This document shows, piece by piece, positions 5,870-24,800 of a stretch of 64,000 nucleotides of DNA. Positions within the stretch are counted from its first letter, which is position 1. Every line of letters begins with the position of its first letter. The notes beneath the pieces were generated by a model. The model saw nothing but the letters and a program-made list of their open reading frames with translations, did not search any database and was not told where the DNA came from. The stretch is taken from positions 28,213 to 92,212 of the IMG/VR virus record IMGVR_UViG_3300042330_000433, one strand, 5' to 3'. Source of the DNA: a virus. The position numbers and the translations under genes were made by a program.

Positions 5870-6454
5870 ATGATAGGTATTTATAAAATAACTTCTCCAA
5901 CTAATAGAATTTATATAGGTCAAAGTAATAATATAGAACTTAGATTTAAATTTTATAAAAATTTAAGATGTAAATCTCAAATACGATTATATCGTTCATT
6001 TTTAAAACATAATGTTGATCAACACAAATTTGAAATAATTGAAGAATGTGATATTAAAGAATTAAATAATAAAGAACGATATTGGCAAGATTATTATGAT
6101 GTAATATCTAACAAAGGTATGAATTGTATATTAACTAATGCAGATAATAAATCTGGAAAATTATCAAAATTTACAAAAAATAAATTAAGTAAATCTACAA
6201 AAGGTGTTAAAAAATCTCCAGAACATTGTAAAAAATTAGGTTTAGCTAAAAAAGGTATTAAATTATCAGAAAACCATAAATTAAAAGTAAGTTTAAATAG
6301 TAAACAATCTAAAAAAGTAATAAATTTAGAAACAAATACGATATATAATTCAATAAAAGAAGCTTCTATTAAATTAAATATAAATTATAGAACGTTATCT
6401 TGGAGAATAAATAATAATCATAAAACATTAAAATTTTTAAATAATGAACAATAA
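5870..6454 (+). CDS. GIY-YIG homing endonuclease with NUMOD3/NUMOD1-like tail
   Basis: MIGIYKITSPTNRIYIGQS; KKSPEHCKKL and KLSENHKLK repeats; KKVINLETNTIYNSIKEAS. Confidence 0.9.
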   Translation: MIGIYKITSPTNRIYIGQSNNIELRFKFYKNLRCKSQIRLYRSFLKHNVDQHKFEIIEECDIKELNNKERYWQDYYDVISNKGMNCILTNADNKSGKLSKFTKNKLSKSTKGVKKSPEHCKKLGLAKKGIKLSENHKLKVSLNSKQSKKVINLETNTIYNSIKEASIKLNINYRTLSWRINNNHKTLKFLNNEQ

Positions 6455-8102: not shown

Positions 8103-10087
8103 TGGCAAATAGATTTGATAATGGTTCAGTTTCAGCATATAAACCTCAAAGTTTTCAAGAACTGGCGTTTGTTCCTATGATGAAACGTAAACAACATGAT
8201 GAATTAGAAGCAGCTTATATAAATGCTAAAGTTAATACGGATCCTTTAGATGTACATAAAGATGAAGCACTTCGTCTTAAAAATGAAATTGAAGGTAAAG
8301 TAAGTTCTTTATCAGAACAACTTTCTACAAAAGGTATTACACCAGAAGCTAGAAGTTCATTTTTAAAATTTAATAAAGAATATCAAGACTTAATTTCACC
8401 AACTGGTAGAATAGGTCAAATAAATAATGCTAAAAAAGTATATGCTGAAGAATTTAAAGAATATTTAGAAGATGCTACTAAAAATAAAGGATTTTCAAGA
8501 GAAGATGCTTTATATAATTGGCAAACACAACATCATCCTAAATATACAGGATATAATGATGCTAGAGAAATTAAAAATATTGATTCATATGGTGCACCAA
8601 AAAGACATATTTTACAAGAAGATTTAAAATTAGTTAAATCTTTATTAGGAGAAAACACACAAACTATTATGAAAAATAATGGTTTCAGTTTTGGAGAAGG
8701 ACCAAATGGTAGTATAATTATACAAGATGGTAAAGGAAGACTTGTTGAAACTAGCAATTATCCTCAATTAAAAGAAGCTCAAGAATATTTAACTAGTAGA
8801 TGGATTCAACCTACAGGTGAAGGAACAATATCTGCTAGATTTGAAAGACAAGATCCTAAAAGAATTATTGATGAAATTAATAATGGTTTAGGTATGATGA
8901 AATCTTACAAATTAGATGACACTAGAGAAACTGATTATTCAATTCAAGGATATACTGCTCCAGAGAAAAATGTAGATCCAACAGGAGTTATTATTAGTAA
9001 TGATAGTACTTTAACTTCAGATGCTGTAGCACAACCTACTTATACTAATGCTTTAGATGAAATTAAAAGATTAAGTTCTTCAAAAAGTAGAAATTCAGCA
9101 GATCAAGCTAAATTAGAAGATTTAATTGAATTAAGACAAAATGCTGATAAAAAATTAAATGCTAATCCTAAATATAATGAATTAACAAAATCTTATAATA
9201 ATGCTCAAAAAGCTTATGAAGATTATGCTAATAAAATGGGAACATTTAAAGATGGTAAATGGCAAAGAGATCCTAATAAAAAAGATCCAACTACATCAAA
9301 TGTTGCTTTTAAATTATCACAATTAAAAGTAAAAGCTGATGAAATTAATACTCAAAGAAGTAAAATAAAAGATAAAGCTTGGGCAAAATCTTCTTCATTA
9401 AGACATAATTATTCATATATGCCATCTACTCCAAAAGAAGAATCTAATTGGAATTTACATAATGAAAATATATTCAATGTAATGAAAGGTGTTGATTTAG
9501 GTAATGTATTAGATTTAACAAGTATTCATACAGCAAGTGGTAGTAAGAAAAATATTGAAGATGTTGATGTTCAAAATATTCAAGAATTATTAAAACATGG
9601 TGATCCAAAATCATTTAAAATTAATAATATTAAAACATATGGTAATAGTAAAACACCTGAAATAACAATGACTTTTAATACTACAGAAAAAGCTTCAGGA
9701 TATGATTTAAAAGGTACAACTGGTTTATTTTCATCAGGTGATGATAATTATGGTGGAGCTAACAAACCAGTTACTGTTACTTTTAAATTGAAAAAATTAA
9801 CTAACTCACCAGATACTGGTTCTGCAGTAGGTTATAAAAATTTAAGTGGTGCTATTGCAGATGCTTGGAAAGATAAAGGTAGAATAAATCAAGTTACTGG
9901 AAATTTCCAAGGAGCGGAAATTTCAACAGCTTTAATTAGTAATAGTTATGCTGATTTAACTAATGATCAATTAGCTCAACGTGCTAGTAGAGATTCTGAT
10001 GCATTAACAGCTTTATATTTAAGAGCTTCAAAAAAAGGAGTTACACCAAAAGTATTACTTCAAAAATACAAAAATAATAAAAGATAA
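8102..10087 (+). CDS. Putative ejection/internal virion protein
   Basis: 661 aa, helical, no Cys seen; start overlaps upstream stop; lies in the ejection gene block. Confidence 0.55.
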   Translation: MANRFDNGSVSAYKPQSFQELAFVPMMKRKQHDELEAAYINAKVNTDPLDVHKDEALRLKNEIEGKVSSLSEQLSTKGITPEARSSFLKFNKEYQDLISPTGRIGQINNAKKVYAEEFKEYLEDATKNKGFSREDALYNWQTQHHPKYTGYNDAREIKNIDSYGAPKRHILQEDLKLVKSLLGENTQTIMKNNGFSFGEGPNGSIIIQDGKGRLVETSNYPQLKEAQEYLTSRWIQPTGEGTISARFERQDPKRIIDEINNGLGMMKSYKLDDTRETDYSIQGYTAPEKNVDPTGVIISNDSTLTSDAVAQPTYTNALDEIKRLSSSKSRNSADQAKLEDLIELRQNADKKLNANPKYNELTKSYNNAQKAYEDYANKMGTFKDGKWQRDPNKKDPTTSNVAFKLSQLKVKADEINTQRSKIKDKAWAKSSSLRHNYSYMPSTPKEESNWNLHNENIFNVMKGVDLGNVLDLTSIHTASGSKKNIEDVDVQNIQELLKHGDPKSFKINNIKTYGNSKTPEITMTFNTTEKASGYDLKGTTGLFSSGDDNYGGANKPVTVTFKLKKLTNSPDTGSAVGYKNLSGAIADAWKDKGRINQVTGNFQGAEISTALISNSYADLTNDQLAQRASRDSDALTALYLRASKKGVTPKVLLQKYKNNKR

Positions 10088-10090
10088 AAA

Positions 10091-13000
10091 ATGGAAGATG
10101 AAGAATTAAATAGTTATGATAAGAATTTTTTAGATTCTTTAGATGCTGGATATAAAAAATTTAATACTCCTAAAAATAAAAAATTAGCAACTAGAAATGC
10201 TTTTGATTCAGAAATACATCGTGTTAATTTTGATAGTTCTAATCAAGATGAATTAAGAGAAGGAATTAATCCTTTTCTTAATCAATTTGTAGATTTAAAT
10301 GCTGAAGATCCATACAATGAAATAAGAGCTTCTAATCAATCAGGTGGTGAGCAATTAATGAAAGGTTTTGGTAGAGCTACTTCTAAAGCATTAACTGAAG
10401 TAGCTAAATTACCAGGGGTTGTAGCAGGTTCACTTGCAGCTCCATTTGTGGAAGATGGTAAAGGAATGGATATGGCATTTAATAATGCTTGGATAAGATC
10501 TTTGGATGAAATACATGAAAAAATAAATACTGATTTATTACCTGTGTATACTGCAAAAGCAGTTTCAGAAGGTAATTTATGGGATAATATATCTTCTACT
10601 TCATTTTGGGCAACTGATGGAGCTGATGGTATTGGTTTCGTTGCTGCAATGTTTGTTCCTGGAGCAATATTTCAATATGCAGGTTTAGGTGGTAAATTAA
10701 TTAACACCTTAGCTAATTCTTCTAAATTAGCTAAATATACATCAATGGTTGGTAAAGCTGAAGATGCTGTAAACACTTTAAAGTTTATGGGTGTTAGTGG
10801 TAGAAATATTGATAGTGGTATGGCTATCTTTGGAAATACTATATTTGAAGCAGGTGCTGAAGCAAAAGGTGTGGGTGATGATTTAGATTCTAAAAAAGAA
10901 GATTTTTTAAATACTTATATTAATAAAGGTTATAGTCCTGAAGAAGCTGAAGAATTATTTAATGAACAAAGAGCTCTTGCAATGAAAGATACTTTTATAG
11001 CAAATGTTGGAATATTACTTGGACCAAATGCTATAATGCATAAAGCTATTTGGGGCAAAGCTGCTCAAAAATATGAAAAAACTACAGAACAAGGTATAAA
11101 AAGTATTGCAGAAAGAACAGGAACTAGTCTTGGTAGAGTAGGTGGTGCGTTTGCTTCTGAAGGTTTTTGGGAAGAAGGTTCTCAAACTACTGTTGAAAAT
11201 ATGTATGTTGATAAAGCAATGCGTGGTGAACTTGGTAAAAATTTTACAAGTGATGCTTCTATTGGTGATTTTACTAAAGAATATATAAATACTATAAGTA
11301 GTACAGATGGTCAAAAAGCAATATTCTTAGGTGGAGCAATTGGTGGACCAATGATGTCATATCAAGGTAGGAAACAAGATGTAGCTAATAGAAAAAGTAC
11401 AAATTTAATTTTAGATAATATTGATAAACAAATTACTAATTTTAATACAACTTTTGATAATGATATTTATTTAAAAAATGAAGATGGTACATTTCAATTT
11501 GAAGTTGATGAAAATAATGAACCAACTACTAAAAGAAAATTAAATTATAAAAAAGTAAGAGAAGTAGCAAAAGCTTTAAACTATACAGAACAACAATCTG
11601 AATTATTAGATTTAGCAATTGAATCAGGTAATATAGATGTAGTTGAACAAATAAAACAAGATGCTATTTTTAATTTAATTATACCTGCAATATTTAATGG
11701 TGAAGCAGGATTAACTGCTTTAGAACAAAAACTTACTGCAGATAGTAAATTTAATGAACTAGTTGAAAGAGATAATATTTCAGATGAAAAGAATAAAACA
11801 AAAACTTTTGTTAAAGAAACTTTAGAAACTGCAAAATATCTTCAAAAACAAAATGAAAAATTTACAGATTTTAGTAAAGATGTAATTCAATTAGAAAATG
11901 AAAAAGCAACTTTTGAACAAAAAACTGATTTTTTAAATAAATTAAATACAAGTTATTTAAATACAAAACATGTTTTAAGACAACTTGAAAAAAACTTAAA
12001 AACTGAAGAAACTAAAAGAAGTAATATTTTAGAAGAACTTGGTTTAGAAACTAATTTACAAACTGAAGATGAATTATTAGTTAATGCTGAAACAAATAAT
12101 GAATTACTAAAACAAACTAATGATAAAATTAGAGAAATAGAATCTAACATAAAAGATAATAAAAAATCTATTTCTGAAATTTGGCAAAGTAAATTAATTA
12201 ATAAAAGTTTTAATGATTATATAAAAGCAGATGAAGCTGAAACTAAAGAAGCATCTGAAGAAAAAGTTTTAGAAGCTCAAGAAGTTTTAGATACAATTAA
12301 ATCATTTGAAGATGAAGAAGATTTAAAAAATTACTTTTCTAAATTACCTCAAATTCAAAAAGATAATCATATTATTAGTGAAGAAGTTCAAGAACAATTT
12401 AGAAAAATTAAAGAAGCTCAAGCTTTACAAAAACAAATTAATGAAGTTGAAGCTTTAGATAAAGATAAAGAAAAGTTTGAAAAAGATTCATTTATACCAA
12501 CTGATACAACACCTGAAACTAAAGAATCTATAGTAGAAACAACAGTACAAGGTTTAGAAACATTACAAACTTCTGATAATCCAGAAGTTGATAAGTCTGA
12601 TAATATTATAGATAAAAGTGCAAATGGTATTCAGTCAGTAAATGAAGCTACTAATCCAACAAATGTTGCTAAAAATCAAGGTGCTGCTAGAATTATAAGT
12701 ACAAATCTTACTACTGGTAAAGCATTATTTCCTAATTTAGAAAGTTTTGTAACTTATGAAAAAGAACCTAGAGATAAAACTAAAGATAGAGTAACTTTTG
12801 ATGTAGGTGATATTAATCCTAAAAATGAATCTTTTACTGCAAATGAAATTTTTAAAAGAATTAAAAATGGTGAAATTTTAACTAAAGATGAAATTGAATA
12901 TGCTGCTAAGTATTTACCAATTAGTGTTACTTTATCTAATAAAGGTAATTCAGCAACATCATTTATTGATTCTATGTCAAGTCAATCACCAAAAATTGTA

Positions 13001-14317
13001 GAAATAGAAACGTTACCACTTCGTAGAAGTATTATAAATGCTTTAATTGAAAACAAAGGTTCTTTTGATGGTATTATAGGTAAAGTTAATAAACAATTCA
13101 CAGGAGCTCTTAAATTAGGTGAACAAAATTCTAATATATTAGAGTTAGATGTATTTAAAAATATGTCTGAAGAAGATAAAATTAAATATTTTAAAAAAAA
13201 TACCGTATATGTTACTAATAAAGGAGAAGTTAAATATACTTCTAATAATGTAACTGATAATACTAAAGTTTTATCAAGTAGTAATAAAGGTGAAGTGTTT
13301 CTTAAAATACCAATGGTTAATGGTGAAATATTTTATTTAAAATTAAATACTAGTAGATTAAGTGATGAAAAAGCTGAATCTGTATTAGATTTAATTATAC
13401 TACGTTCTAATATATTAAATAAACAACAAGAATTTAATATAGATGAATTAGAAAAATATATTACAGATAACTTACCAAGTTTATTAACTGAATTTAATTT
13501 TGTTAAAAATAATAATGATAGCATTGATGTTACTTTAGAAAAAGTAATTAATTTTGTAGTGTTTTCTCAAAATACAAATGCTAAAACTAAATTAATTTTA
13601 GGTAATGACGGTAAATTAGTATTAGGAGAATTATTACATAAAGTTAATTCACAAATTCCAGAATGGAGTGGTCAATTAGAAAGTTATACTTATACTACCG
13701 ATAGTTTAAATAATTTAGACAGTAATCAAAAACAAGCAATTGTAGAGTATCTTAAATATAAAAGACATAATGTTTTAATTACTAAAGATAGCTCTGCTAC
13801 ATTTAATAATGATGATTATATTAAATATTTATTAGGTATTAATTCAGATTATGCTGTATTAACAACTAATGCTGTAGTGAATGAACCAACATTTCAAGGT
13901 TATTCTAATATATATTTAGATCAAACTGTTGTAAATAAAAAAGCTAAAAAACAAGTTGTAGCTGAAGAAACTAAAGAAGTTAAACTGGATACTACTGAAG
14001 ATTTATTAGGTTCATTAGAAGGTATGTTTGGTGATGATGTTGTTCAAACAGTTAAACCAATAGCACCACCAGAAGTTGTTGCTCAACAAGAATTAGATTT
14101 TGAAACTAAAAAAATTAAATCTAATAAACTAAATGATATATTTAAAAATGCAGATGCTAAAACTAAAGCTAAAATAGTTGCTGTAATAGCTAAACAATTA
14201 GGAATGATGGATAAAGTTAATCCTAAAGATATGAATAGTAGTTTTAATGAATTATTTAAAGAACTTAAAGATAACGAAACTTTACAACAAGAAATTAAAA
14301 AAATATGTGGATTATAA
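10091..14317 (+). CDS. Large ejection protein
   Basis: 1408 aa; Gly/Ala-rich hydrophobic N-terminal segments, EGFWEEGSQ, coiled coils; directly upstream of the virion RNAP. Confidence 0.65.
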   Translation: MEDEELNSYDKNFLDSLDAGYKKFNTPKNKKLATRNAFDSEIHRVNFDSSNQDELREGINPFLNQFVDLNAEDPYNEIRASNQSGGEQLMKGFGRATSKALTEVAKLPGVVAGSLAAPFVEDGKGMDMAFNNAWIRSLDEIHEKINTDLLPVYTAKAVSEGNLWDNISSTSFWATDGADGIGFVAAMFVPGAIFQYAGLGGKLINTLANSSKLAKYTSMVGKAEDAVNTLKFMGVSGRNIDSGMAIFGNTIFEAGAEAKGVGDDLDSKKEDFLNTYINKGYSPEEAEELFNEQRALAMKDTFIANVGILLGPNAIMHKAIWGKAAQKYEKTTEQGIKSIAERTGTSLGRVGGAFASEGFWEEGSQTTVENMYVDKAMRGELGKNFTSDASIGDFTKEYINTISSTDGQKAIFLGGAIGGPMMSYQGRKQDVANRKSTNLILDNIDKQITNFNTTFDNDIYLKNEDGTFQFEVDENNEPTTKRKLNYKKVREVAKALNYTEQQSELLDLAIESGNIDVVEQIKQDAIFNLIIPAIFNGEAGLTALEQKLTADSKFNELVERDNISDEKNKTKTFVKETLETAKYLQKQNEKFTDFSKDVIQLENEKATFEQKTDFLNKLNTSYLNTKHVLRQLEKNLKTEETKRSNILEELGLETNLQTEDELLVNAETNNELLKQTNDKIREIESNIKDNKKSISEIWQSKLINKSFNDYIKADEAETKEASEEKVLEAQEVLDTIKSFEDEEDLKNYFSKLPQIQKDNHIISEEVQEQFRKIKEAQALQKQINEVEALDKDKEKFEKDSFIPTDTTPETKESIVETTVQGLETLQTSDNPEVDKSDNIIDKSANGIQSVNEATNPTNVAKNQGAARIISTNLTTGKALFPNLESFVTYEKEPRDKTKDRVTFDVGDINPKNESFTANEIFKRIKNGEILTKDEIEYAAKYLPISVTLSNKGNSATSFIDSMSSQSPKIVEIETLPLRRSIINALIENKGSFDGIIGKVNKQFTGALKLGEQNSNILELDVFKNMSEEDKIKYFKKNTVYVTNKGEVKYTSNNVTDNTKVLSSSNKGEVFLKIPMVNGEIFYLKLNTSRLSDEKAESVLDLIILRSNILNKQQEFNIDELEKYITDNLPSLLTEFNFVKNNNDSIDVTLEKVINFVVFSQNTNAKTKLILGNDGKLVLGELLHKVNSQIPEWSGQLESYTYTTDSLNNLDSNQKQAIVEYLKYKRHNVLITKDSSATFNNDDYIKYLLGINSDYAVLTTNAVVNEPTFQGYSNIYLDQTVVNKKAKKQVVAEETKEVKLDTTEDLLGSLEGMFGDDVVQTVKPIAPPEVVAQQELDFETKKIKSNKLNDIFKNADAKTKAKIVAVIAKQLGMMDKVNPKDMNSSFNELFKELKDNETLQQEIKKICGL

Positions 14318-14318
14318 T

Positions 14319-14349
14319 TTGGTTATATCAAATTAATTTCGTATATTTG
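14319..14349 (+). promoter_or_regulatory. Bacteroidota sigma-A promoter for the virion RNAP gene
   Basis: TTG (14319-14321), 20 nt spacer, TATATTTG (14342-14349); shares GTATATTTGTATA with the promoter at 5784. Confidence 0.7.
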
Positions 14350-14364
14350 TATAAATTATAAAAT

Positions 14365-17300
14365 ATGGCATGTACAAGAGTATCAATTACAGGTAAATCC
14401 GAATCAATATTATTTGATACAATCTATAATAATTTAGCAAATCAAAATGAACAGCTTGCTGATGAAATGTTTAGTCATTTTAAAAGTGAGCTTTTTAAAA
14501 AAGATTTTGGTAATTTTATTGAAGATTATAATAATAATATTATATCTGATAGAACAGACGAAAATGGTGAACCAAAACTGTTTTATAATGAAACAGCTAA
14601 AAAATATTATTATCTAAATAAAGATAATGAAACAATATATTTTCCTTTAGTTAATAGAGGACTTCGTTCTATTTGGAATTATGACCAAATTAATAAAATT
14701 AAATCTAGATTAGCATTAGCTTATTTTAGTAAATCTAAATTAGATTTTAATAATATTAATTTTGATAAAGCTTCACCATTACCTAAATTAAAAGATTTTA
14801 TTCTTAAAGAAATTCAAGATAAAATTAATTCTTTAGAAGAAGAAGGTGAATACTTTTCAGCAATGTCATTAGAAGAGTCTTTAAATAATTTAGATGAATT
14901 AGTTTCAAATGTAGAAAGTTTCTTTAAAGAAATGAATCTTGAAATTAAAGAAGATGAAGAAAATGGTGAATGGATAGTTGAAGAAGAAGGTAAAGATCCA
15001 GTATTTAATCAACATTCTGCTGAAAGAAATACTAAAAAAAGTGTAAGTACAAATGTGAAACTAAGATTAAGTTTACTTAAAGATAATGAAAACTTAGATC
15101 CTATTTGGAATGAACCTACTTTTCTTAACAGAGATATGGTTTATGCTGCATTACAGGGTGTTTTATGTGAAGAAATTCCACTTCCTGGTGAAGATATATT
15201 TGAATTGCATAAAAGTGCTTTAAATCGCATATTAGCAAAGAAACCATTTCTTAAAGAATTACATAGTTATTTAAATAGTCCTGACATTACTGAAAATCAA
15301 AAAAGTGAATTTAGTCAAGCTTTTAATTTAATTAAAAATAATCATATTGTTAGTCAGTATATTACTGATAAAAATAATGTAGTTACACATAAAAATTTAC
15401 AAATTTCAGATACAGGTTCTAAAACTACAAAAGTTAAAGAACAATGGGATGAAAATTTTCAAAATATATTTTTATCTAAAACTAATAAATTAAAAGATGA
15501 TTCTGTAAAAAGAATAATTAATGCAGGTAAAGTTATTAAATCTAATATTGATAATATTCAAGAATTTAATAAATCTATTAAAACTGGTGTTGAATCTGAA
15601 TTACAACCTAAATTTACTAAATTAGTTGAAGATATAAATTTATTTTTAAAAGCATTAGGTATTGAAACTACTCAAGAAGGTTTACAAATATATTTAGATA
15701 ATTATGGTAAAGATATTTCTTTACAAGATATGACTAATAATTTACTTACATTAGCTATTCAAACAGAATATGTAGTTAAAGGACTTAGTTCTAAATATGA
15801 AAAAGAAACTAAAGATTATAGTAGCTTTTTAACATTATCTCAAACATTTAATAAATTAGCAGCTGCTGAAGCATTTATGTTAACTGAAGGTTCTGATGCA
15901 ACTATATTAACAGGTGGTAAACAAAAATGGATTTATTCTTATCCATCTTATTTATCTAGTACTATTAATCAATGGAAGAGAAATCCTCAAATATTATTAG
16001 ATTTATATAAATCAGGTCAATATCAATTAGGTTCTTATTATATGGGAGTTTTAACAGCTTCTACTGATGTTAATGGTAATAAACTAGGATATAATTCAAA
16101 TGCTGAACAAATTGAAGCATCTCGTAAATTACTTGATAAAATTGATTTAGGTATCATGAATCAAATGAGTACTGAAACTGATTTTAAAAAGACTACTGAT
16201 TTATCATATAAAGATTATCTTACAGATTATATTAATAAAGTAATTATTGGAGAATTTTCAAGAACGACTACACCTGCTGATAAAACTACAGATTTACAGA
16301 TTAAATTTAATTTACCTGTATCTTCTTATAATGGAATAGTAGATGGTCAGTTACAATTAAAAAAACAAACTAAAGATATATTCTTTAATTATTTTGCATC
16401 TGAATATCATAGAATGTTAGAAGCAAGTAATGAAGTTGATAATGCTAATAATGGAGTAAGTAATGATAAATTAACACCTCATTATCATTATCAGTATCAA
16501 GTTAAAAATTCTAAAGGTGAATCAATAGTTAATCCAAATCCTTATGATAAATCAGGTAATGCTTTTAAATCTCAATACTTTGAAAATTTATCACCTAATT
16601 CTAAAAATCAAACTGAATTAGAAAAACAATTAACTGATCGTTTATATACAGGTAGTAAATTTAATTATAGTTTGTTAGAAAGAGGATTAGATCCTGAATT
16701 AGATCAATTATTTGATTCATATCTTCAAGAAAACTTTCATAAAAGATTTACTGAAACTTTAAATTATTTACAAAGTTCTGATATTTTTATTAGAAATGCT
16801 AAAGGATTTATTGTTCCTAATAAAATAGATAAAAATACATTAGATACTCAATATAAAAACATATCTGAATTACAAAAAGCTTATGCTATTACTTCAGATT
16901 TTATGGTTAATGGATTAATTAACAATATTGAATTTTCTAAAATGTTTAGTGGTGATGTTGCTTACTATAAAAATATGGTAGATTATAAAAAACGTGTACC
17001 TGCAACATATACTGATGGATTACAATTAAGAATAAATAAAGATAATGAAACATTTAAAATTGCTACAATTGAAAGTGTTAATCGTAAATCACCATTTTAT
17101 GATTTATTAGTTGAATCTTTAGGTAAAAATGAAGCTAAACCATATGAATCTATAAATAGTGCTGATGCACAAGCTTGGATTACTCCTGCAAGATGGAAAT
17201 TTTTAATTAAAGCTTTAGGTAAATGGACTACAGGTGCAGACAGTCATGAATCTGTATATCATAAAATGATGGATACTAGTGGTAAAAATTTAATTTATAC

Positions 17301-20300
17301 TCAAAAAGAACTTAAATTAGCTGCTCAACCATTAAAAGGTGTATATTTTTATAGAGATGCTTCTGGTAAACCTGTTTATTTAAAATATTCGCAAGCTGTT
17401 TTATCACAAGCATTAGTTAAAAATTCTGATTTAGAAAAGTTATTCAATAAAATGAATGCTGATAAAATTGATGAAGTTATTACATTTGATGGTGTAAAAG
17501 TAGGATCTATTGAACCAACTAAAATACATGATGATAATGGAAATATTAAAGATGAATTTGAGTTAAATAGTCAAACTTTATTTAATAGAGGGTGGAAACT
17601 TCAACAAGATTTACCAACTAAAACATTTAAAGATTTAGATGTTGGTTCACAAATTCAGAAAAATATATTTGCAGGTTTATTACATAATAAAACTCTTGAA
17701 GGATTTGAATTAGATGGTAATCTATATAATGGTCAACAAATTATTACTGAAATAGTAAAAGCTGTCACAGGTTTAACTAATGAAGGTTTGAATTCACTTA
17801 AAAAAGAATTTAAAATTGATGATAATTTTAAAATTGGTAATATATCAGGTTTTTATAAATCATTAATTGCTGAATTAGTTAAAAGAGGTGGTTCTGAGAA
17901 TGTAGTAACTGCTTTAAATGCAGAAACAACTATTGTAGGTATTCCACAATCAGCAGGTAAATTATTTAATATATTTGCTTCAGTGATGAATAGCAGACTT
18001 ATTAAAATTAAAACTAATGGTGGTTCATTTATTCAAATGAGTAACTTTGGTTTAAATAAAATTGAAGCTGAATCACAAGGAGTTAGATGGTCGCCATTAG
18101 CAGATAATACTACTAATGAACCTTATATTTATGTAAATCCAGATACAAATAGACCAACTGTTAAACCAGGTGGAATATTATTGTCAGGATCATTTTTATC
18201 AAAACATGTTCCTAATTGGAGAAAATATTCTAATGAAGAATTATTTGTTAGTTATGATGGTGGTGAACCTATTATTAATAAAAAAATACAAGAAACTATA
18301 ATTGGTTATAGAATTCCTAATCAAGGTCTTGCATCCAATGATGCATTAAGAATTGTAGGAATACTTCCAGAAGCATCTGGAGATACTGTTGTAGCTTATA
18401 CAGGTATTACTACTAAAACAGGTTCAGATTTTGACGTTGATAAAATGTATGTAATGTTTCCATCTTATAGTAAAAACTCTGAAACTGATAGATTAGAATA
18501 TAATAATTATGATGAAAACAATATTACTAAAAAAGGATTACAAAATAGATTAATTGAATTATATAAATCTGTATTAACACATCTTGAAGTATATAAATCT
18601 GTAATGAAACCAATTGATATTGATTTTATACAGAATGAACTTAATGCTTTATTTCCAGGTACATCTACTATATTTATGAATCATTTTGATCCAGAAGTAG
18701 ATCTTAAATTAAGATATTCTTTTTTAGGTGGTAAAGCTGGAGTTGGTCAAGAGGCTAATGCAATGGTTGATATTAGTAGAGAAGGTAATCTATCTTTATT
18801 AGGAGTTAAAAATATATTATGGGGTCATCACAATGAATTAAATGAATCTAAATTTGATGAAGAATTTTCAGAAGAATTATCTGAAGAAGAATTAGATTAT
18901 TATGCAGCTCAAATGCTTAAACCTAATAGTTCTACAGAACGTATTAATGAATTTAAAGATGAACTACGTAAAGTAAAAATTGGTGATTCATTAACAGCTA
19001 TTTTGAATGCATTTGTAGATATTGCAAAAGATCCTTATATTTCAAAAGGTAACTGGATTATGTCAACAACTAATGTTGGTAATATGTTACTTAGATTAGG
19101 AGCACATCCATTATATGTAGTTAACTTTTTAGCAAATCCAATTATTAAACAATATGTAGATTTTCAAAAATCTAAAGAGGGTTTAACAGATGTTCAAGAT
19201 AGTGGTGATACAATTGAAAAATTTAAAAAAGAAATTGTAATTAATGCACTTGATAAAGTAGAAGGTTATACAATTAGTCTTGGTAATATATATAAAGATT
19301 ACTTTAGTCAATTAAATATAGATTATAAAAAAGAAAGATTAGCTTATCAATTAGATAATAAAATTATTACATTGCAAGAATATAATAGTTCTATTGAAAG
19401 TATAGATAAAAGTTTTAAAAATGTATCTGAAGTTTTATTAAAAAAATTAAAAATTCCTGTTGAAGAATTAACAAGGGTTATTGATAATATGAAACAACAA
19501 CATGATATAGCTTTTAATCCTAATAAATTAAATATATTTGATAGAAAAACTAATCAATGGGATAAATATAAATTAAATTTAGAATATTTTAGAAATCAAA
19601 ATACTACTAAAACACCAGATATTAACTTTCAAATTAATTTACTTAATGCTTTTAAAGAATTACAAGAGTATAGTAAAAATGTAAGAGAAAATGTTGTTGT
19701 ATCTAAACTAGATACTGATGGTATGGGTAAAAGTCATAATGATTTATTTGCATTATTTAATCAAAAAGAACAAATAATGACTAAAGTTAATAATGAAGTA
19801 ATAGGAGCTATAAAAGGCTTTAATACTAAGTTTGAAGGTACAACATTAGAAGCTTATTATAATAGCTTAAAATGGGTTAAAAACGTAGTAGAAAACAATG
19901 CTTTGTTATTTCCTACAGGTACATCTCAAATACAATCTATATTTAATGAAGTTTCTAATGATTTATACGGTACTAATTTAGTTAACTCTGAATTAGTAAC
20001 AAAGTTATCTAAAGATTATAATACATATTTGTTAAACAAAGTATTTGATATATCTATTGAAGAAAATGATGATATACTTACTAATTTACCTAAAAGATTA
20101 CATGATTTTAATGAAGAAAATAAAGGTAAGTACTTTTTATTAGATGAATTAAATATTAAAATTTCTAAATCTAAAAAATATCAATCTAGTATTGAATTAA
20201 ATAATAGAAAGAAATCTACAACATATGAAACATTATTTACTAATTCATGGAAAGATTTAATGATAGATAATCCATCATTAGCTGAAGATTTAATTAAATA

Positions 20301-21846
20301 TTCTTTTATTACTTCTGGGTTTCAAATGAATACTACTCAATTTTTTACTTATATTCCAGCTGAATATTTTATTCAAAAAGATATAAATAATAGAGTTAAT
20401 GAAATTAATAATCAAAATCAATATGATTTTTTAGATAAATTTTATTTAAATAATTTAACTGATAAAAAATTAGTAAGAAAGGTATTTAAAGATAATATTG
20501 TAGCTGATGGTGTAAATATAAATAATGGTTTTGTTAATTTATATGACAAAAAAGGAAATTATTATGTAGAATTACATACTGCACCTTCAGTAGATGCTGA
20601 TCCAACTGTTAAAATTAAACCTAGATATTATAAATTAATAGGTTATGATACAGAACAAAAAGGTGTTTATGCTAGAATTCAAGAATTAGATAAAAAGTTA
20701 AATAACAAAATTTTATATAACTTTAATGACTATACAGAATTAATTAATGATGATATTATAAAACTTCAAAAATTAGTATCATTTGATAGAAATATGCAAA
20801 GTATTGATAATGAAATTGAAACTAATAATATTAAAGTTGAACAAGTATCTGAAGTTAAAGAAGTTGTTAAATCTGAAGTTATTGAATCTGATCTTTATAA
20901 AAAATATGGTATAAAAGGAATTGAAATTGTAAACAGATATTCTATTGAAGATACTAAAAATAATCTAGATAAAATTTATGTTTTTGGTGATAATACTAAA
21001 AGAGTAGGTACTGCAGGACAAGCTTCTATAAGAAATAGTGTAAATGCTGTAGGAATTGCTACAAAATTAATACCATCAAATAATGAAAGTTCATTTATGT
21101 CTGATAATGATTTTGAATCAAATAAACAATTTATAGATAGTGATATAAATAAATTAATAGAAAAATCAGATGAAAAAATAATTGTATTTCCAAAAGATGG
21201 TTTAGGTACAGGTTTAGCTAAATTGAAAGAAAAAGCTCCTCAAACTTATCAATATTTAAAAGATCAATTATTAGAAAATTTTGGTTTTGATAATGATACT
21301 GGAGAAATAACTAATTTAATAAAAACAGAATCTATTAAAAAAGAAATAGTAAATAAATCTGAAATATTAAAACCATTATTTATTAAAGATACCACTGCTA
21401 ATGTAGTTAAAGGTTCTGTTGTAAATTATAATGGTAAAAAATGGATTGTTTGGAATATAACAGACAAAGATAAAGCTCAGCTAATAGATACTGAAGGTAA
21501 TAAATTTAGTGGTACACCTAATTTAGATAAATTAAGTCCAATTGGTAATTATATTACTACTGAATTTAATGGTACTGATTATATTGTAACACAAAATGAA
21601 AATATTTATTCATTAGATACTGGTAAGCAAGTATTTACTAATTTAGATGGTTCAACTAAATCTAAAAAAGAAAAAATTATTAATCAGATAATTGAAGAAA
21701 ATAATTTAATGCCAGAAGATAATACATCAGAAGAAGAATTTGATTTAGATTCTTTAGATTATGGTGAGATTACTGAAAGTGAATTAAATACTTTAACAGA
21801 AGAAGAAAAAGCTACAATAGCTTGGCAAAAATTAAATTGTAAATAA
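14365..21846 (+). CDS. Virion-packaged single-chain RNA polymerase (phi14:2 gp66-like) with C-terminal accessory domains
   Basis: GYRIPNQ and catalytic GSDFDVDK (18421-18444); DYKKR, DAQAW, AFVDIAKDP motifs; 2493 aa. Confidence 0.9.
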   Translation: MACTRVSITGKSESILFDTIYNNLANQNEQLADEMFSHFKSELFKKDFGNFIEDYNNNIISDRTDENGEPKLFYNETAKKYYYLNKDNETIYFPLVNRGLRSIWNYDQINKIKSRLALAYFSKSKLDFNNINFDKASPLPKLKDFILKEIQDKINSLEEEGEYFSAMSLEESLNNLDELVSNVESFFKEMNLEIKEDEENGEWIVEEEGKDPVFNQHSAERNTKKSVSTNVKLRLSLLKDNENLDPIWNEPTFLNRDMVYAALQGVLCEEIPLPGEDIFELHKSALNRILAKKPFLKELHSYLNSPDITENQKSEFSQAFNLIKNNHIVSQYITDKNNVVTHKNLQISDTGSKTTKVKEQWDENFQNIFLSKTNKLKDDSVKRIINAGKVIKSNIDNIQEFNKSIKTGVESELQPKFTKLVEDINLFLKALGIETTQEGLQIYLDNYGKDISLQDMTNNLLTLAIQTEYVVKGLSSKYEKETKDYSSFLTLSQTFNKLAAAEAFMLTEGSDATILTGGKQKWIYSYPSYLSSTINQWKRNPQILLDLYKSGQYQLGSYYMGVLTASTDVNGNKLGYNSNAEQIEASRKLLDKIDLGIMNQMSTETDFKKTTDLSYKDYLTDYINKVIIGEFSRTTTPADKTTDLQIKFNLPVSSYNGIVDGQLQLKKQTKDIFFNYFASEYHRMLEASNEVDNANNGVSNDKLTPHYHYQYQVKNSKGESIVNPNPYDKSGNAFKSQYFENLSPNSKNQTELEKQLTDRLYTGSKFNYSLLERGLDPELDQLFDSYLQENFHKRFTETLNYLQSSDIFIRNAKGFIVPNKIDKNTLDTQYKNISELQKAYAITSDFMVNGLINNIEFSKMFSGDVAYYKNMVDYKKRVPATYTDGLQLRINKDNETFKIATIESVNRKSPFYDLLVESLGKNEAKPYESINSADAQAWITPARWKFLIKALGKWTTGADSHESVYHKMMDTSGKNLIYTQKELKLAAQPLKGVYFYRDASGKPVYLKYSQAVLSQALVKNSDLEKLFNKMNADKIDEVITFDGVKVGSIEPTKIHDDNGNIKDEFELNSQTLFNRGWKLQQDLPTKTFKDLDVGSQIQKNIFAGLLHNKTLEGFELDGNLYNGQQIITEIVKAVTGLTNEGLNSLKKEFKIDDNFKIGNISGFYKSLIAELVKRGGSENVVTALNAETTIVGIPQSAGKLFNIFASVMNSRLIKIKTNGGSFIQMSNFGLNKIEAESQGVRWSPLADNTTNEPYIYVNPDTNRPTVKPGGILLSGSFLSKHVPNWRKYSNEELFVSYDGGEPIINKKIQETIIGYRIPNQGLASNDALRIVGILPEASGDTVVAYTGITTKTGSDFDVDKMYVMFPSYSKNSETDRLEYNNYDENNITKKGLQNRLIELYKSVLTHLEVYKSVMKPIDIDFIQNELNALFPGTSTIFMNHFDPEVDLKLRYSFLGGKAGVGQEANAMVDISREGNLSLLGVKNILWGHHNELNESKFDEEFSEELSEEELDYYAAQMLKPNSSTERINEFKDELRKVKIGDSLTAILNAFVDIAKDPYISKGNWIMSTTNVGNMLLRLGAHPLYVVNFLANPIIKQYVDFQKSKEGLTDVQDSGDTIEKFKKEIVINALDKVEGYTISLGNIYKDYFSQLNIDYKKERLAYQLDNKIITLQEYNSSIESIDKSFKNVSEVLLKKLKIPVEELTRVIDNMKQQHDIAFNPNKLNIFDRKTNQWDKYKLNLEYFRNQNTTKTPDINFQINLLNAFKELQEYSKNVRENVVVSKLDTDGMGKSHNDLFALFNQKEQIMTKVNNEVIGAIKGFNTKFEGTTLEAYYNSLKWVKNVVENNALLFPTGTSQIQSIFNEVSNDLYGTNLVNSELVTKLSKDYNTYLLNKVFDISIEENDDILTNLPKRLHDFNEENKGKYFLLDELNIKISKSKKYQSSIELNNRKKSTTYETLFTNSWKDLMIDNPSLAEDLIKYSFITSGFQMNTTQFFTYIPAEYFIQKDINNRVNEINNQNQYDFLDKFYLNNLTDKKLVRKVFKDNIVADGVNINNGFVNLYDKKGNYYVELHTAPSVDADPTVKIKPRYYKLIGYDTEQKGVYARIQELDKKLNNKILYNFNDYTELINDDIIKLQKLVSFDRNMQSIDNEIETNNIKVEQVSEVKEVVKSEVIESDLYKKYGIKGIEIVNRYSIEDTKNNLDKIYVFGDNTKRVGTAGQASIRNSVNAVGIATKLIPSNNESSFMSDNDFESNKQFIDSDINKLIEKSDEKIIVFPKDGLGTGLAKLKEKAPQTYQYLKDQLLENFGFDNDTGEITNLIKTESIKKEIVNKSEILKPLFIKDTTANVVKGSVVNYNGKKWIVWNITDKDKAQLIDTEGNKFSGTPNLDKLSPIGNYITTEFNGTDYIVTQNENIYSLDTGKQVFTNLDGSTKSKKEKIINQIIEENNLMPEDNTSEEEFDLDSLDYGEITESELNTLTEEEKATIAWQKLNCK

Positions 21847-24800
21847 ATGGCAAATTGCATAAATACAAGCTCAAAAGAATATATTGAGTTATTAGAACAA
21901 TCAAAATTAAATCCATTAATCCTGAAGGCTAGAATTTCTATCTTTCAGGATAAAAATGGTTTAGATTCATATCCTAAATTAGAAGATATTTTAAAATCCA
22001 ATCAAGTTAATACAACTTTAAAAGCTGTAGATATTTTACAATCTGATAAAGCTAAACAAATATTTGAAAAAGGTAAAAAAGCTGGTTGGGATTTAAATAA
22101 AATTCTTACAGAACTTCAAATACCTAAAGAACAGAAGCAATTACTTTTAGATTTAAATATTACTGATAGAGAACAATTAGCTGTAGAATTAGCTTTTAAA
22201 TATAGCTACAGTGTTGAAGTTAATACTACTAAAAGTAAAGGTAATGAAGATGGTTTTAGTTTAGATGATCATTATGATTTAGATTTTAAAGATCAATACA
22301 GAGAAAGTAATGGTAAGTATTATGAAATAAATATTTACGGTGATAATGAAGCTCAAGAAATAAGTAAAGAAGTTTATGATATAGCTAAACAAAATTATAA
22401 AAATAATGAATTAGAAAAAGAAAATAATAAACCTAATAGTTCATATTATTCTAACCTAACAGTTCCAGGTGGTACTAATTATACAGAAAATGAAATAGCT
22501 ACACCATTAATTACACCTAGTATTAAAGGTCATGCTCAATTTAGCACAGATAATGGAATAGGATGGTTTAGAAGTGATGATGCTTTAGTTAATAATGGTT
22601 TAACACAAGAAGAATTAGATAATATTCCACAAGAATATTTAGAAGAAGCTTTACATACAACTAAAACTAGAAGAATACTTGAAGTACAATCTGATTTATT
22701 TCAGAAAGGTAGAGATAAAGAATGGTTATCTAGAGAAATGAATAGTTTAACTCCAGAAGAAGTAGCTAATGAACCTGAATGGCTTAGACCTATTGGAACA
22801 ATTGTTAAAAGTGATAGTAAAAAAAATGCATTTTTAAATCTATTAATAAAAGATTCTAACTGGGTTACATTCTTTGTTAAATCTATTATACAAGATAGTG
22901 CTAAAAAAGGATATGAGAAAGTGTTATTTCCAAGTGGAGATACAGCTAGTAAAGTTGAAGGTCATACAACATTAGAAGAGTTTAAAAAACAGAAAGAAGA
23001 TAGAATTAAAGAACTTGAAAAAACAAAAAATAAAGTTAAAAATTCTAATAAAGATGAATATGCTGATGCTGCTTACGGTGAAGTTTTAGGAAAAAATGAT
23101 TATTTAAATAGTGTAAATAATGAAATAAATCAACTTAAACAAGAACTTGAAAGAGTTGAAGGACCAGAAGGATTTGGTGCTTTAAAACCTATTTATAGCT
23201 TCTATGAAAATACTGTAACTAATATTCTTAATAAAACTTACGGTAAAGATAATGTAAATGTTATTACTGATGAATATGGTAATACTTGGAATGAAATTAC
23301 TTTAGATAATAAAAGAGATACTTCTACTATTTTTATGAAACAAGATTTATCTGAATTTGTAAATGAAACAGGTGAAAATTTATTTCAAGATAATCAAAGT
23401 CAAGGTATCCAATCTAATAAAATTTATAAATCTAATGAATTATTATTTGGTAATAAATCTAAAATTACAGTTGATGAAGTATTAGATAATATTATTACTA
23501 ATTTTCCTAATTTAGATAGTACAACTAAAGAATTAATTAAAAGATCAAAAAAATTACTTAACAAATCTAAAGCGACTGTTAAGTTTATTAATGAATCTGA
23601 ATTATCTGATGATTTAACTATTATGCAATATGAATCAGATAATAATGAAATTCAAATTAGTAAAGCTAGATTATCTAAATATAATGAAAAAGAATCTGTA
23701 ATTGCATTTTTACATGAAGTAGTACATGGTCAAACTGTACAAGCTATGTTAAAACCTGCAAATGAAAGAACTTTTGCGGAACAAGACTTAGTTGATGTAA
23801 TTGAAGCATTTTTATCTAAATATAAAAATAGTGATATAAAATCAGAATATGGTTTTACTGATAAATTTGAATTTGTAGCTGAATTTTATGCTAATCCTGA
23901 TTTTAGAAATAAAGTTAAAGAAACTTCAGAAGTTTGGTGGCAAAAAATAATGAATGCTATTAGAAGATTATTTGATATTCCAGCTAATCCTGAATATAAA
24001 AAGTTATTTGATACAATTATTAATTATGTTGAATTAGAATCTCAAGATTATGTTGGTATTAAAAGATATGATAATATTTTTCAAAAACAAGTTCAACCTG
24101 AAAATATTGAATTAGATACTATTGAAAAACAATTACAACATACAGTTAATCAAGCTAAAGATAGGATTACTCAATTAATTAAAAGAACTAAAGCTGCAGC
24201 TAATGTTAAAAATAAAGAAGAACATAAAAACTTTATTAAATTATTTGAAGCTTTATTAGATGAAATTGTTTTAGCTGAAAGAAATAATAAATGGAAATCT
24301 ATTACTTCATATGCTAAATCATTTTCTAGTGCTGTAAGTAAGCTTAATAATAGTTTAAATAAAGCATTACGTATTGGAGTAGTAACTCATAATAATATAA
24401 TTTATCATAAAGAACAATTTGATTTATTTAGACCTGTAAGTGTTGCTGGTAAATATATAATTGCTGAAGATATATATGAATTATATAAAAATGATCCTTT
24501 TATTGAAAATTTAGTTAAAGCTGATAATTTAGATATTAATGATGATTTATATAATACTTTAGATAATTTATCTACAAAAGATTTAGATACTTTTGAAATG
24601 TTAAAACTTGTTGATAGTTATGAAGAATATTTATCAGCATATGATTTATTAGATGAAATTAATTCTTTAATTACTAGAAGTCAAAATGATAAAACATTAG
24701 AAAGAAAAGATAAAGTTCAAATTGAAGAAATTAAAAAAGTATTACATAATTTAAAAGATGGTCATCAAAATTTAACAGATTCATTTATAAATATTAAAAA

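What the first reader, a model, noticed from the sequence alone, without database searches (positions are those of the whole stretch)
14306..21858. Terminal cysteines suggest the three giant ejection proteins are chained head to tail
Seen (manual count): the 1408-aa protein has a single Cys, third from its C-terminus (KKICGL, 14306). The 2493-aa RNAP has Cys3 (MAC, 14371), a penultimate Cys (KLNCK, 21838) and only one internal Cys that I found. The 1871-aa protein starts MANC (21856). The outer ends of the trio lack Cys, and the two upstream cargo proteins have none. Known: ejected proteins such as N4 vRNAP are Cys-depleted. Inference: intermolecular disulfides (or metal clasps) link protein 1 to the RNAP to protein 3 into one ~5770-residue chain. 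This would fix stoichiometry and ejection order, and could be released on reduction in the cytoplasm.
Basis: partly seen in the sequence, partly recalled or inferred. Interest (0 to 1): 0.78.

Follow-up and report, generated by a model that had tools for sequence, protein, structure and literature searches.

The report
Terminal cysteines link crassvirus cargo proteins
Three giant proteins that this crAss-like phage probably packs in its particle and injects (its RNA polymerase is the middle one) are almost cysteine-free except for one cysteine at each end that faces the next protein; across the phage order these cysteines occur where the chain is broken into separate proteins and are absent where the genes are fused, which points to end-to-end disulfide links that no paper I found describes for crassviruses.

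Summary
P1 (10091-14317) has one Cys, third from its end. The RNA polymerase (14365-21846) has Cys3, Cys2492 of 2493 and a non-conserved Cys268. The trio holds 0.12% Cys against 1.26% in the window's other ORFs.

The pattern is a rule. It holds in all 20 RNAP lineages sampled, in 91 of 91 P1 homologs, in all full-length RNAP homologs, and in cultured phi14:2 and crAss001, where one gene lies on the opposite strand. Fusions behave as predicted:
- P1+RNAP fusions keep only the C-terminal Cys (21 of 21).
- RNAP+P3 fusions keep only the N-terminal Cys (3 of 3).
- Two triple fusions have no Cys.
- A break moved into P3 carries the Cys with it.
- A gene split by a group I intron has no Cys pair.

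In the unrelated cyanophage A-4L the same signature (sole Cys at -3 of gp27, sole Cys5 of gp26) is a disulfide seen by cryo-EM.

The best reading is a head-to-tail, probably disulfide, chain. The bond itself is untested in any crassvirus. This scan has already noted the same rule on more than 100 other crAss genomes. I found no paper describing it.

The parts
10091..14317 (+). P1, first giant cargo protein (1408 aa), ortholog of phi14:2 g067
   Evidence: ORF. phmmer E 9.8e-77 to g067, a virion protein verified by mass spectrometry. One Cys only.
14306..14308 (+). Cys1406 codon of P1, third residue from the C-terminus (EIKKICGL tail)
   Evidence: One of only 20 invariant columns among 90 homologs. 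91 of 91 homologs have a Cys in the last 5 residues.
14318..14364 (+). 47-nt spacer between the P1 and RNAP genes, with a conserved TATATTTG element
   Evidence: Same length and near-identical sequence in L001, L003 and L004. It contains stop codons, so no read-through fusion is possible. The promoter role is inferred from its likeness to the Bacteroidota -7 consensus TAnnTTTG (my own knowledge).
14365..21846 (+). Virion RNA polymerase (2493 aa), ortholog of phi14:2 gp66 and crAss001 gp50
   Evidence: phmmer E 1.4e-195 to PDB 6VR4. E 4.4e-200 to g066.
14371..14373 (+). Cys3 codon of the RNAP (MAC)
   Evidence: Invariant column in 66 homologs. 67 of 68 homologs have a Cys at position 3-5.
15166..15168 (+). 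Cys268 codon of the RNAP, not conserved
   Evidence: Shared only with a few close relatives (P0093, P0097, P0119, P0125) and absent in most.
20932..21267 (+). DUF7831 accessory domain in the RNAP C-terminal extension (aa 2190-2301)
   Evidence: Pfam PF25176, E 3.5e-36. This region is absent from phi14:2 gp66, whose alignment ends near residue 2109.
21838..21840 (+). Cys2492 codon of the RNAP, penultimate residue (KLNCK)
   Evidence: All 58 full-length homologs end with a Cys in the last 5 residues, whatever the C-terminal domain.
21847..27462 (+). P3, third giant cargo protein (1871 aa), ortholog of phi14:2 g065 and crAss001 gp49; HEVVH motif at residue 623
   Evidence: phmmer E 4.5e-105 to g065 and 2.4e-22 to gp49; HExxH motif found. 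The gp66 preprint describes gp65 orthologs as carrying a zincin-like protease domain.
21856..21858 (+). Cys4 codon of P3 (MANC)
   Evidence: Every P3 in the related loci has a Cys at position 2-8 and none near its C-terminus.
27079..27273 (+). Stretch holding P3 Cys1745 and Cys1809, both non-conserved
   Evidence: Absent in L004, L005, L011, L012 and phi14:2 g065, which have only the N-terminal Cys.
6444..10087 (+). Cargo protein 1 (6444-8102) and the next cargo ORF (8102-10087), both without Cys and so outside the chain
   Evidence: Pfam crAss_CARG1, E 3.8e-14. Zero Cys. The equivalent ORFs in L001-L012 also have zero Cys, apart from one Cys in L010.
1644..5732 (+). Muzzle protein, a structural protein that is not Cys-depleted (13 Cys)
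   Evidence: Pfam crAss_MUZ, E 6.3e-203. 13 Cys. Cys depletion is therefore specific to the cargo proteins.

Best explanation
P1, the virion RNA polymerase and P3 are packaged cargo proteins of a crassvirus. In the virion they are joined head to tail in gene order by two intermolecular disulfides: P1 Cys1406 to RNAP Cys3, and RNAP Cys2492 to P3 Cys4. This gives one thread of about 5770 residues.

Shown here:
- The Cys positions.
- The tenfold Cys depletion elsewhere in the trio.
- The order-wide rule that a Cys pair sits at every protein break and nowhere else.

Inferred:
- The two facing Cys bond to each other.
- The bond is a disulfide that forms once the termini dock inside the particle.
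- The Cys sit at the extreme ends so that the joined chain stays essentially linear and can be threaded, partly unfolded, through the narrow tail like a single polypeptide.
- Other Cys are selected against because stray cross-links or loops would jam the passage.
- The host's reducing cytoplasm cuts the links and frees the three proteins.

In evolutionary terms, the Cys pair stands in for the peptide bond each time the giant polyprotein gene is split.
For: 1. Positions and depletion in the window.
2. Conservation. All 20 RNAP lineages at 50% identity follow the rule. 91 of 91 P1 homologs have a Cys in the last 5 residues, none has one in the first 10, and 82 of 91 have exactly one Cys. RNAP Cys3 is invariant. 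Every full-length RNAP homolog ends with a Cys in its last 5 residues, despite unrelated C-terminal tails and accessory domains.
3. Natural fusions.
   - In 21 of 21 P1+RNAP fusions there is no N-terminal Cys and a Cys in the last 10 residues; in 18 of them it is the only Cys in about 4500 aa.
   - In 3 of 3 RNAP+P3 fusions Cys4 is kept and there is no C-terminal Cys.
   - The triple fusions L058 (5542 aa) and P0164 (4714 aa) have no Cys.
   - Where the break lies about 360 residues inside P3 (P0160-63, P0165-69, P0171), the Cys sits at that new end.
4. Negative control. In L085 the RNAP gene is split by a group I intron with a LAGLIDADG ORF. That is a gene break without a protein break, and no Cys pair is present.
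5. Independence from gene adjacency. crAss001 gp47 (sole Cys at -3) is on the opposite strand from gp50 (Cys5, Cys -9) and gp49 (sole Cys5). L001 and L006 have other genes inserted between RNAP and P3.
6. phi14:2 shows the exact four-Cys pattern in virion proteins verified by mass spectrometry.
7. Experimental precedent. A-4L gp27 (1717 aa, sole Cys at 1715) and the next gene product gp26 (1114 aa, sole Cys5) are disulfide-bonded in the cryo-EM structure (PMC12002296).
8. crAss001 virions contain structural disulfides (PMC10172136).
9. Both Cys codons occur at the conserved sites.
10. The window encodes an O2-dependent class I ribonucleotide reductase, which suggests an aerobic host in which virion thiols can oxidise (inference).
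Against: - No direct observation of a covalent link between these proteins exists for any crassvirus. The cargo was not resolved in the crAss001 maps.
- Gut crassviruses live in an anaerobic habitat and assemble in a reducing cytoplasm, so oxidation needs explaining. I found no thiol oxidase or thioredoxin-fold gene among the 32 other window ORFs scanned against Pfam.
- The gp66 preprint suggests that fused polyproteins are cleaved into their components. If that is true, Cys-free fused forms work unlinked and the link would be dispensable.
- The window carries three extra, non-conserved Cys (RNAP 268; P3 1745 and 1809), so Cys exclusion is not absolute.
- L010 P1 carries its conserved EEIC motif 32 residues from the end rather than at it.
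Confidence: 0.7

Rival explanations
1. The facing terminal Cys are joined through a bridging metal ion (a zinc or iron clasp) rather than a disulfide. The chain topology is the same but the chemistry differs.
For: The comparative pattern shows only that the facing ends are paired, not how. A metal bridge could form in a reducing cytoplasm or in an anaerobic gut.
Against: Each terminus contributes a single conserved ligand. No second conserved Cys or His lies next to it in the tails (EIKKICG, MAC, NCK, MNC). Known clasps and hooks use two ligands per partner (my own knowledge). One Zn(Cys)4 node made of all four termini is excluded, because P1+RNAP fusions work with two Cys and other forms with one pair only. 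In A-4L the identical signature is a disulfide.
Confidence: 0.07
2. Each terminal Cys bonds to something other than the neighbouring cargo protein. The partner could be the same Cys of a second copy (homodimers) or a Cys of a structural protein such as the portal, the muzzle or a ring protein, anchoring the cargo in the particle.
For: Structural proteins are Cys-rich (the muzzle has 13 Cys), and crAss001 uses inter-protein disulfides in its tail and portal vertex. Sequence alone cannot name the partner.
Against: - This does not explain why the outer ends (P1 N-terminus, P3 C-terminus) never carry a Cys in any lineage.
- It does not explain why the number of terminal Cys is always twice the number of breaks.
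- It does not explain why a fusion removes both facing Cys together and leaves the other pair.
- The facing-pair geometry is what is seen in A-4L.
Confidence: 0.1
3. The Cys are part of non-covalent docking or packaging signals at the termini, or act only transiently during assembly, so no lasting link exists in the mature virion.
For: The flanking residues are also conserved within lineages (EIKKICG; M-A/S-C-K/T), which would fit a docking motif. Formation of the bond in anaerobic hosts is unexplained.
Against: Across lineages the flanks differ widely and only the Cys is invariant. In proteins otherwise purged of Cys, keeping just this residue argues for thiol chemistry. The A-4L precedent shows docking plus a disulfide.
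Confidence: 0.1
4. The pattern is chance, or reflects a signal at the DNA or RNA level (start and stop context, translational coupling, read-through or frameshift fusion) rather than protein chemistry.
For: In the window the RNAP stop is directly followed, in frame, by the P3 start (TAA ATG). TGT is an AT-rich codon in a 24% GC genome.
Against: - Chance: P about 5e-9 in the window alone, and the pattern recurs in 20 lineages.
- The Cys position varies (2-8 from the start, 1-10 from the end).
- Both codons are used.
- Frames and spacers differ between loci: a 47-nt spacer with stops, a +1 offset, and inserted genes.
- In crAss001 the partner genes are on opposite strands.
- Other window ORFs rarely show a terminal Cys.
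Confidence: 0.01

Closest known systems
Cyanopodophage A4 / Anabaena phage A-4L pre-ejectosome proteins gp27 and gp26 (PNAS 2025, PMC12002296)
   Same: Two consecutive, co-directional genes for large ejection proteins. The upstream protein has a single Cys third from its C-terminus (1715 of 1717). The downstream one has a single Cys at position 5. Cryo-EM shows these two residues disulfide-bonded, with the C-terminal helix of gp27 docked in gp26.
   Different: There is no detectable sequence similarity to the crass trio (best E about 0.3). A4 has one link rather than two or more, no RNA polymerase, and an ordered pentameric core on the portal rather than unresolved cargo. The paper reports the bond as a structural detail, not as an evolutionary rule tied to gene fission and fusion.
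RNA-polymerase cargo block of cultured crassviruses: phi14:2 g067-g066-g065 (gp66 = PDB 6VR4) and crAss001 gp47, gp50, gp49
   Same: These are orthologous proteins in the same order after the muzzle and cargo genes, and they are virion proteins by mass spectrometry. They show the same terminal-Cys pattern. phi14:2 has exactly four Cys in 5398 residues, all at the facing ends.
   Different: The window's RNAP has an extra C-terminal extension with DUF7831 and three extra non-conserved Cys. The papers on these phages that I could search do not mention the cargo cysteines. The gp66 preprint has no occurrence of 'cystein' or 'disulf'. The crAss001 atlas has no occurrence of 'cysteine', and its disulfide mentions concern tail and portal-vertex proteins.
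Fused RNAP polyproteins of some Crassvirales (noted in the gp66 preprint, 10.1101/2020.03.07.982082)
   Same: The same three modules appear in the same order as one polypeptide (L058; P0164; partial fusions L013, L015, L018-20, P0160-P0184).
   Different: The fused forms lack the junction Cys, and full fusions lack Cys altogether. The preprint proposes that such polyproteins are cleaved. Here the split forms appear to be re-joined through Cys pairs.
Bacteriophage N4 virion RNA polymerase gp50 (Schitoviridae)
   Same: A giant ejected polymerase thought to pass through the tail unfolded or loosely folded (PMC13434306), and completely Cys-free over 3500 residues, as are gp51 and gp52. This resembles the fully fused crass forms.
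   Different: It is a single chain of a different polymerase family, so no linking is needed. It has no terminal Cys.
Structural disulfides of the crAss001 virion (gp57 dimer; tail hub and ring proteins; PMC10172136)
   Same: They show that crassvirus particles do use inter-subunit disulfides.
   Different: Those links join folded structural proteins at internal positions. They are not at the extreme termini of ejected cargo.

Membership tests
Crassvirales RNA-polymerase cargo block (g067-g066-g065 type) | The middle protein is a gp66-type two-barrel virion RNA polymerase | tested here: met
   phmmer E 1.4e-195 to PDB 6VR4 over residues 32-2109.
Crassvirales RNA-polymerase cargo block (g067-g066-g065 type) | The flanking giant proteins are orthologous to g067 and g065 | tested here: met
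   P1 to g067, E 9.8e-77. P3 to g065, E 4.5e-105, and to crAss001 gp49, E 2.4e-22.
Crassvirales RNA-polymerase cargo block (g067-g066-g065 type) | The block lies downstream of the muzzle protein and cargo protein 1 in the structural module | tested here: met
   Pfam crAss_MUZ on 1644-5732 and crAss_CARG1 on 6444-8102. Same order as in phi14:2 and crAss001.
Crassvirales RNA-polymerase cargo block (g067-g066-g065 type) | The proteins are present in the virion and are ejected | not testable with these tools
   Known only for the orthologs, by mass spectrometry.
Disulfide-stapled consecutive ejection proteins (A4 gp27-gp26 type) | The upstream protein has a Cys at its extreme C-terminus, the next protein has one at its extreme N-terminus, and there are few or no other Cys | tested here: met
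   Window. A-4L. Order-wide.
Disulfide-stapled consecutive ejection proteins (A4 gp27-gp26 type) | Sequence homology to A4 gp27 or gp26 | tested here: not met
   blastp best E about 0.3 and no phmmer hit. The likeness is one of mechanism, not of family.
Disulfide-stapled consecutive ejection proteins (A4 gp27-gp26 type) | A disulfide between the two Cys is observed physically | not testable with these tools
   Needs non-reducing gels, cross-link mass spectrometry or a structure. The one complex prediction gave no verdict.
Split intein / protein trans-splicing | Intein halves (tens of residues) lie between the extein end and the chain terminus, with Cys as the first intein residue and as the +1 extein residue | tested here: not met
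   Only 0-9 residues follow the C-terminal Cys and only 1-7 precede the N-terminal Cys. That leaves no room for intein halves.
Zinc clasp / zinc hook | Two metal ligands (CxxC or similar) are contributed by each partner | tested here: not met
   There is a single conserved Cys per terminus and no conserved neighbouring Cys or His.

The most novel reading that the evidence does not exclude
Terminal-Cys staples are a general, convergently evolved device of tailed phages with giant ejected proteins. It occurs in Crassvirales and, independently, in cyanophage A4.

Under this reading, the staple lets a polyprotein gene be split, for instance by mobile elements, or fused at will, while the products still travel through the tail as one linear thread in a fixed order and 1:1:1 ratio. 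Reduction in the host cytoplasm then acts as an arrival-triggered switch that releases the three proteins and perhaps activates the self-inhibited RNA polymerase.
Probability: 0.35. Interest if true: 0.85.

Novelty: new variant of a known kind. Interest (0 to 1): 0.72.

Why it matters
How crassviruses, among the most abundant viruses of the human gut, store megadalton amounts of cargo protein and push it through a narrow tail in the right order is an open question (PMC10172136; PMC13434306). A covalent head-to-tail chain would explain several things at once:
- the order and stoichiometry of ejection;
- the extreme Cys depletion of these proteins;
- why the same modules can be encoded as one, two, three or more genes without loss of function.

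The hypothesis can be tested in a day on the cultured phages phi14:2 or crAss001. It also gives annotators a simple sequence rule for telling real protein ends from intron- or error-induced breaks in these giant genes.

Tried and rejected
- **Complex prediction.** P1 residues 1150-1408 with RNAP residues 1-450, both as alignments, gave no verdict: score 0.19, under the mark of 0.32. It counts neither for nor against.
I could not fetch the genomic context of the database proteins, so the partners of the fused forms P0160-P0184 were not examined.
- **Reaching the truncated RNAP gene calls.** Searches with P0108 led only to an unsplit relative (L084) and to no close phage record. P0157 then gave L085.
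- **Read-through or frameshift fusion: rejected.** Frames and spacers differ between loci, and the P1-RNAP spacer has stops.
- **Split intein or native-ligation chemistry: rejected.** There is too little sequence beyond the Cys.
- **A single Zn(Cys)4 node of all four termini: rejected.** Forms with only one pair exist.
- **Alternative pairing (RNAP N-end with RNAP C-end, P1 with P3): less parsimonious.** A P1+RNAP fusion would then leave two orphan Cys.
- **Homology between A4 gp26/gp27 and the crass trio:** none found.
- **A phage-encoded thiol oxidase or thioredoxin in the window:** none among the 32 other ORFs scanned against Pfam. Small ORFs and the rest of the genome were not scanned.
- **T7 gp14-gp16:** Cys-poor (a single Cys at position 2 of gp14; gp16 read only to residue 1302) but with no facing pair, so the device is not universal among podophages.
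- **Literature searches** for a description of the rule found none.

Full report
**What is there**

The window is part of a crAss-like phage genome with 24% G+C. Pfam finds the crassvirus muzzle protein on 1644-5732 and cargo protein 1 on 6444-8102. Three giant co-directional ORFs follow:
- P1: 10091-14317, 1408 aa.
- A 2493-aa protein: 14365-21846.
- P3: 21847-27462, 1871 aa.

The middle protein is the virion RNA polymerase, with phmmer E 1.4e-195 to PDB 6VR4, phi14:2 gp66. P1 and P3 are orthologs of phi14:2 g067 (E 9.8e-77) and g065 (E 4.5e-105). Both are virion proteins by mass spectrometry according to the record. The crAss001 counterparts gp47, gp50 and gp49 are virion cargo by mass spectrometry (PMC10172136).

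**The observation**

- P1 has one Cys, residue 1406 of 1408.
- The RNAP has Cys3, Cys268 and Cys2492 of 2493.
- P3 has Cys4.
- The two upstream cargo ORFs have none.

The trio contains 7 Cys in 5772 residues (0.12%). The window's other 45 ORFs hold 1.26%, which would give about 73. With the 7 Cys placed uniformly, four or more falling in the four inner 5-residue end windows has P = 5e-9. Control ORFs rarely have a Cys at an end: 1 of 45 at the N-end and 7 of 45 at the C-end. The muzzle protein has 13 Cys, so the depletion is specific to cargo.

**Conservation**

I fetched 80 related IMG/VR loci and read the ORFs from the DNA.
- Every separate RNAP has a Cys at position 3-7 and another within its last 10 residues.
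- Every P3 has a Cys at position 2-8 and none at its C-end.
- Every P1 has a Cys 1-4 residues from its end and none at its N-end.

Two apparent exceptions dissolve. In L053, L056 and L060 the P3 start was mis-called; the ATG just after the RNAP stop gives MAKKC. L010 P1 keeps the conserved EEIC motif but has a 31-residue extension after it.

The RNAPs fall into 20 clusters at 50% identity and 14 at 40%.

Independent checks in the 5.8-billion-protein database agree.
- 91 of 91 P1 homologs have a Cys in the last 5 residues, none has one in the first 10, and 82 have exactly one Cys.
- 67 of 68 RNAP homologs have Cys at position 3-5.
- All 58 full-length RNAP homologs end with a Cys in the last 5 residues, although their tails and C-terminal accessory domains (AlkB, SF1 helicase, DUF7831, NADAR) differ.
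- In alignments, P1 C1406 is one of 20 invariant columns and RNAP C3 is invariant.
- Both Cys codons are used at these sites.

**Cultured phages**

phi14:2 shows the pattern in pure form. g067 has one Cys, its last residue. g066 has two, at positions 3 and 2179 of 2180. g065 has one, at position 3.

In crAss001, gp47 (sole Cys 2339 of 2341) lies on the opposite strand from gp50 (Cys 5, 1334, 2404 of 2412) and gp49 (sole Cys5). The rule therefore does not depend on gene adjacency or translational coupling. In L001 and L006, unrelated genes (a ferritin-like ORF and a T5orf172-domain ORF) sit between RNAP and P3, and the pair is still there.

**Natural experiments**

Mapping the modules on long ORFs gives the following.
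- 21 of 21 P1+RNAP fusions have no N-terminal Cys and a Cys in the last 10 residues. In 18 of them it is the only Cys in about 4500 residues.
- The P1+RNAP fusions in the loci (L013, L015, L018-20) have no Cys at the fused junction. Where the downstream P3 was read (L015, L018-20), it keeps its N-terminal Cys.
- 3 of 3 RNAP+P3 fusions (P0181-83) keep Cys4 and have no C-terminal Cys.
- Two full fusions, L058 (5542 aa) and P0164 (4714 aa), have no Cys at all.
- In P0160-63, P0165-69 and P0171 the chain runs on through the first 360 or so residues of P3 and then ends, and the Cys sits at that new end.

The reverse control is L085. There the RNAP gene is interrupted inside the catalytic DFDxD codons by a group I intron. 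Two Rfam Intron_gpI segments (E 2e-6 and 6e-4, both below the family's gathering score) flank a LAGLIDADG ORF (Pfam E 5e-24). This is a gene break without a protein break, and it has no Cys on either side. The ten RNAP homologs without a C-terminal Cys end at or just after the DFD motif and are probably gene calls truncated the same way.

In short, the number of terminal Cys equals twice the number of protein breaks, and which Cys survive in which fusion gives the pairing: P1 C-end with RNAP N-end, and RNAP C-end with P3 N-end.

**Mechanism**

The pairing is strongly supported. The chemistry is inferred. Three things favour a disulfide.
- Each end offers one conserved ligand only.
- crAss001 particles contain inter-protein disulfides.
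- The identical signature in the unrelated Anabaena phage A-4L is a disulfide resolved by cryo-EM. gp27 has 1717 aa and a sole Cys at 1715. The next gene product, gp26, has 1114 aa and a sole Cys at position 5 (PMC12002296). A4 gp26 and gp27 show no sequence similarity to the crass proteins, so this is an analogy, not membership.

My inference on function runs as follows. Links at the extreme ends keep the joined chain linear, so it can pass through the tail partly unfolded, as proposed for crassvirus cargo. Other Cys are purged to avoid loops and stray cross-links. N4's single-chain vRNAP and its two ejection proteins have no Cys at all. The links would survive the oxidising periplasm and be cut in the cytoplasm. 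The window's O2-dependent class I ribonucleotide reductase suggests an aerobic host, where oxidation of virion thiols is unproblematic.

**Weak points**

- No crassvirus experiment shows the link.
- Formation of the bond in anaerobic gut hosts is unexplained.
- I found no thiol oxidase in the window.
- The gp66 preprint proposes that fused polyproteins are cleaved. If so, linkage would be dispensable in those phages.
- The complex prediction gave no verdict.

**Novelty**

Four literature searches found no description of the rule. The gp66 preprint has no occurrence of 'cystein' or 'disulf'. The crAss001 atlas has no occurrence of 'cysteine', and its disulfide mentions concern tail and portal-vertex proteins.

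Earlier notes of this scan report the same rule on more than 100 other crAss genomes. I used them as a lead to the A4 paper and re-tested the claims here.

Relative to published work this is a new variant of a known kind. A terminal disulfide between consecutive ejection proteins is known in one cyanophage. Here it appears as an order-wide rule with two or more links, includes the virion RNA polymerase, and tracks gene fission and fusion.

Noticed in passing
L085:14100-15070 (IMGVR_UViG_3300040771_000130): The RNAP gene is interrupted inside the catalytic DFDxD codons by a group I intron. Rfam Intron_gpI segments lie at 14149-14286 and 15018-15050, both below the family's gathering score, and flank a LAGLIDADG homing endonuclease ORF at 14328-14981. 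Ten of the 68 database RNAP homologs end at or just after the DFD motif and are probably gene calls truncated the same way.
   Followed up: partly
window:20932-21267 and homologs P0098-P0152: The C-terminal part of crass virion RNAPs is a variable slot for accessory domains: DUF7831 in this window, and AlkB, SF1 helicase, NADAR or PF18760 in relatives. The many tblastn hits of the RNAP in Caulobacter, Rhizobium and Brevundimonas phages may be due to such a shared domain. I did not check this.
   Followed up: no
window:14318-14364: The 47-nt spacer between P1 and the RNAP gene keeps its length and nearly its sequence in L001, L003 and L004. It contains TATATTTG, which fits the Bacteroidota -7 promoter consensus TAnnTTTG. 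This may be an internal promoter for the RNAP gene.
   Followed up: partly
window:38632-47881 and 53080-53475 (- strand): A cluster of amidoligase-like, glutamine amidotransferase (three ORFs), phiEco32-like COOH-NH2 ligase, ATP-grasp and gamma-glutamyl cyclotransferase (two ORFs) genes. It looks like a peptide-ligase or modification system of unknown target.
   Followed up: no
window:28626-29363, 32998-34623, 34623-35597 (- strand): ThyX plus class I ribonucleotide reductase large and small subunits. The small subunit needs O2, which suggests an aerobic host. crAss001, by contrast, is annotated with a B12-dependent reductase.
   Followed up: no
window:5870-6454 (+) and 55803-56351 (-): Two GIY-YIG homing-endonuclease-like ORFs, both starting MIGIYKIT (Pfam GIY-YIG E about 1e-6, with NUMOD-type DNA-binding tails). 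One is inserted between the muzzle gene and the cargo protein 1 gene.
   Followed up: partly
L001:17479-17988 and L006:16524-17321: Extra genes are inserted between RNAP and P3 in relatives: a ferritin-like ORF in L001 and a T5orf172/treble-clef ORF, probably a mobile nuclease, in L006. The RNAP-P3 junction seems to be a hot spot for insertions.
   Followed up: partly
L089 (T7), L083 (N4), L088 (A-4L): Ejection proteins of unrelated podophages are also almost Cys-free.
- N4 gp50, gp51 and gp52 have 0 Cys.
- T7 gp15 has 0, gp16 has 0 in its first 1302 residues, and gp14 has only Cys2.
- A-4L gp29 has 0, while gp27 and gp26 have one each at the facing ends.

Cys avoidance may be general for proteins that pass through the tail.
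   Followed up: partly
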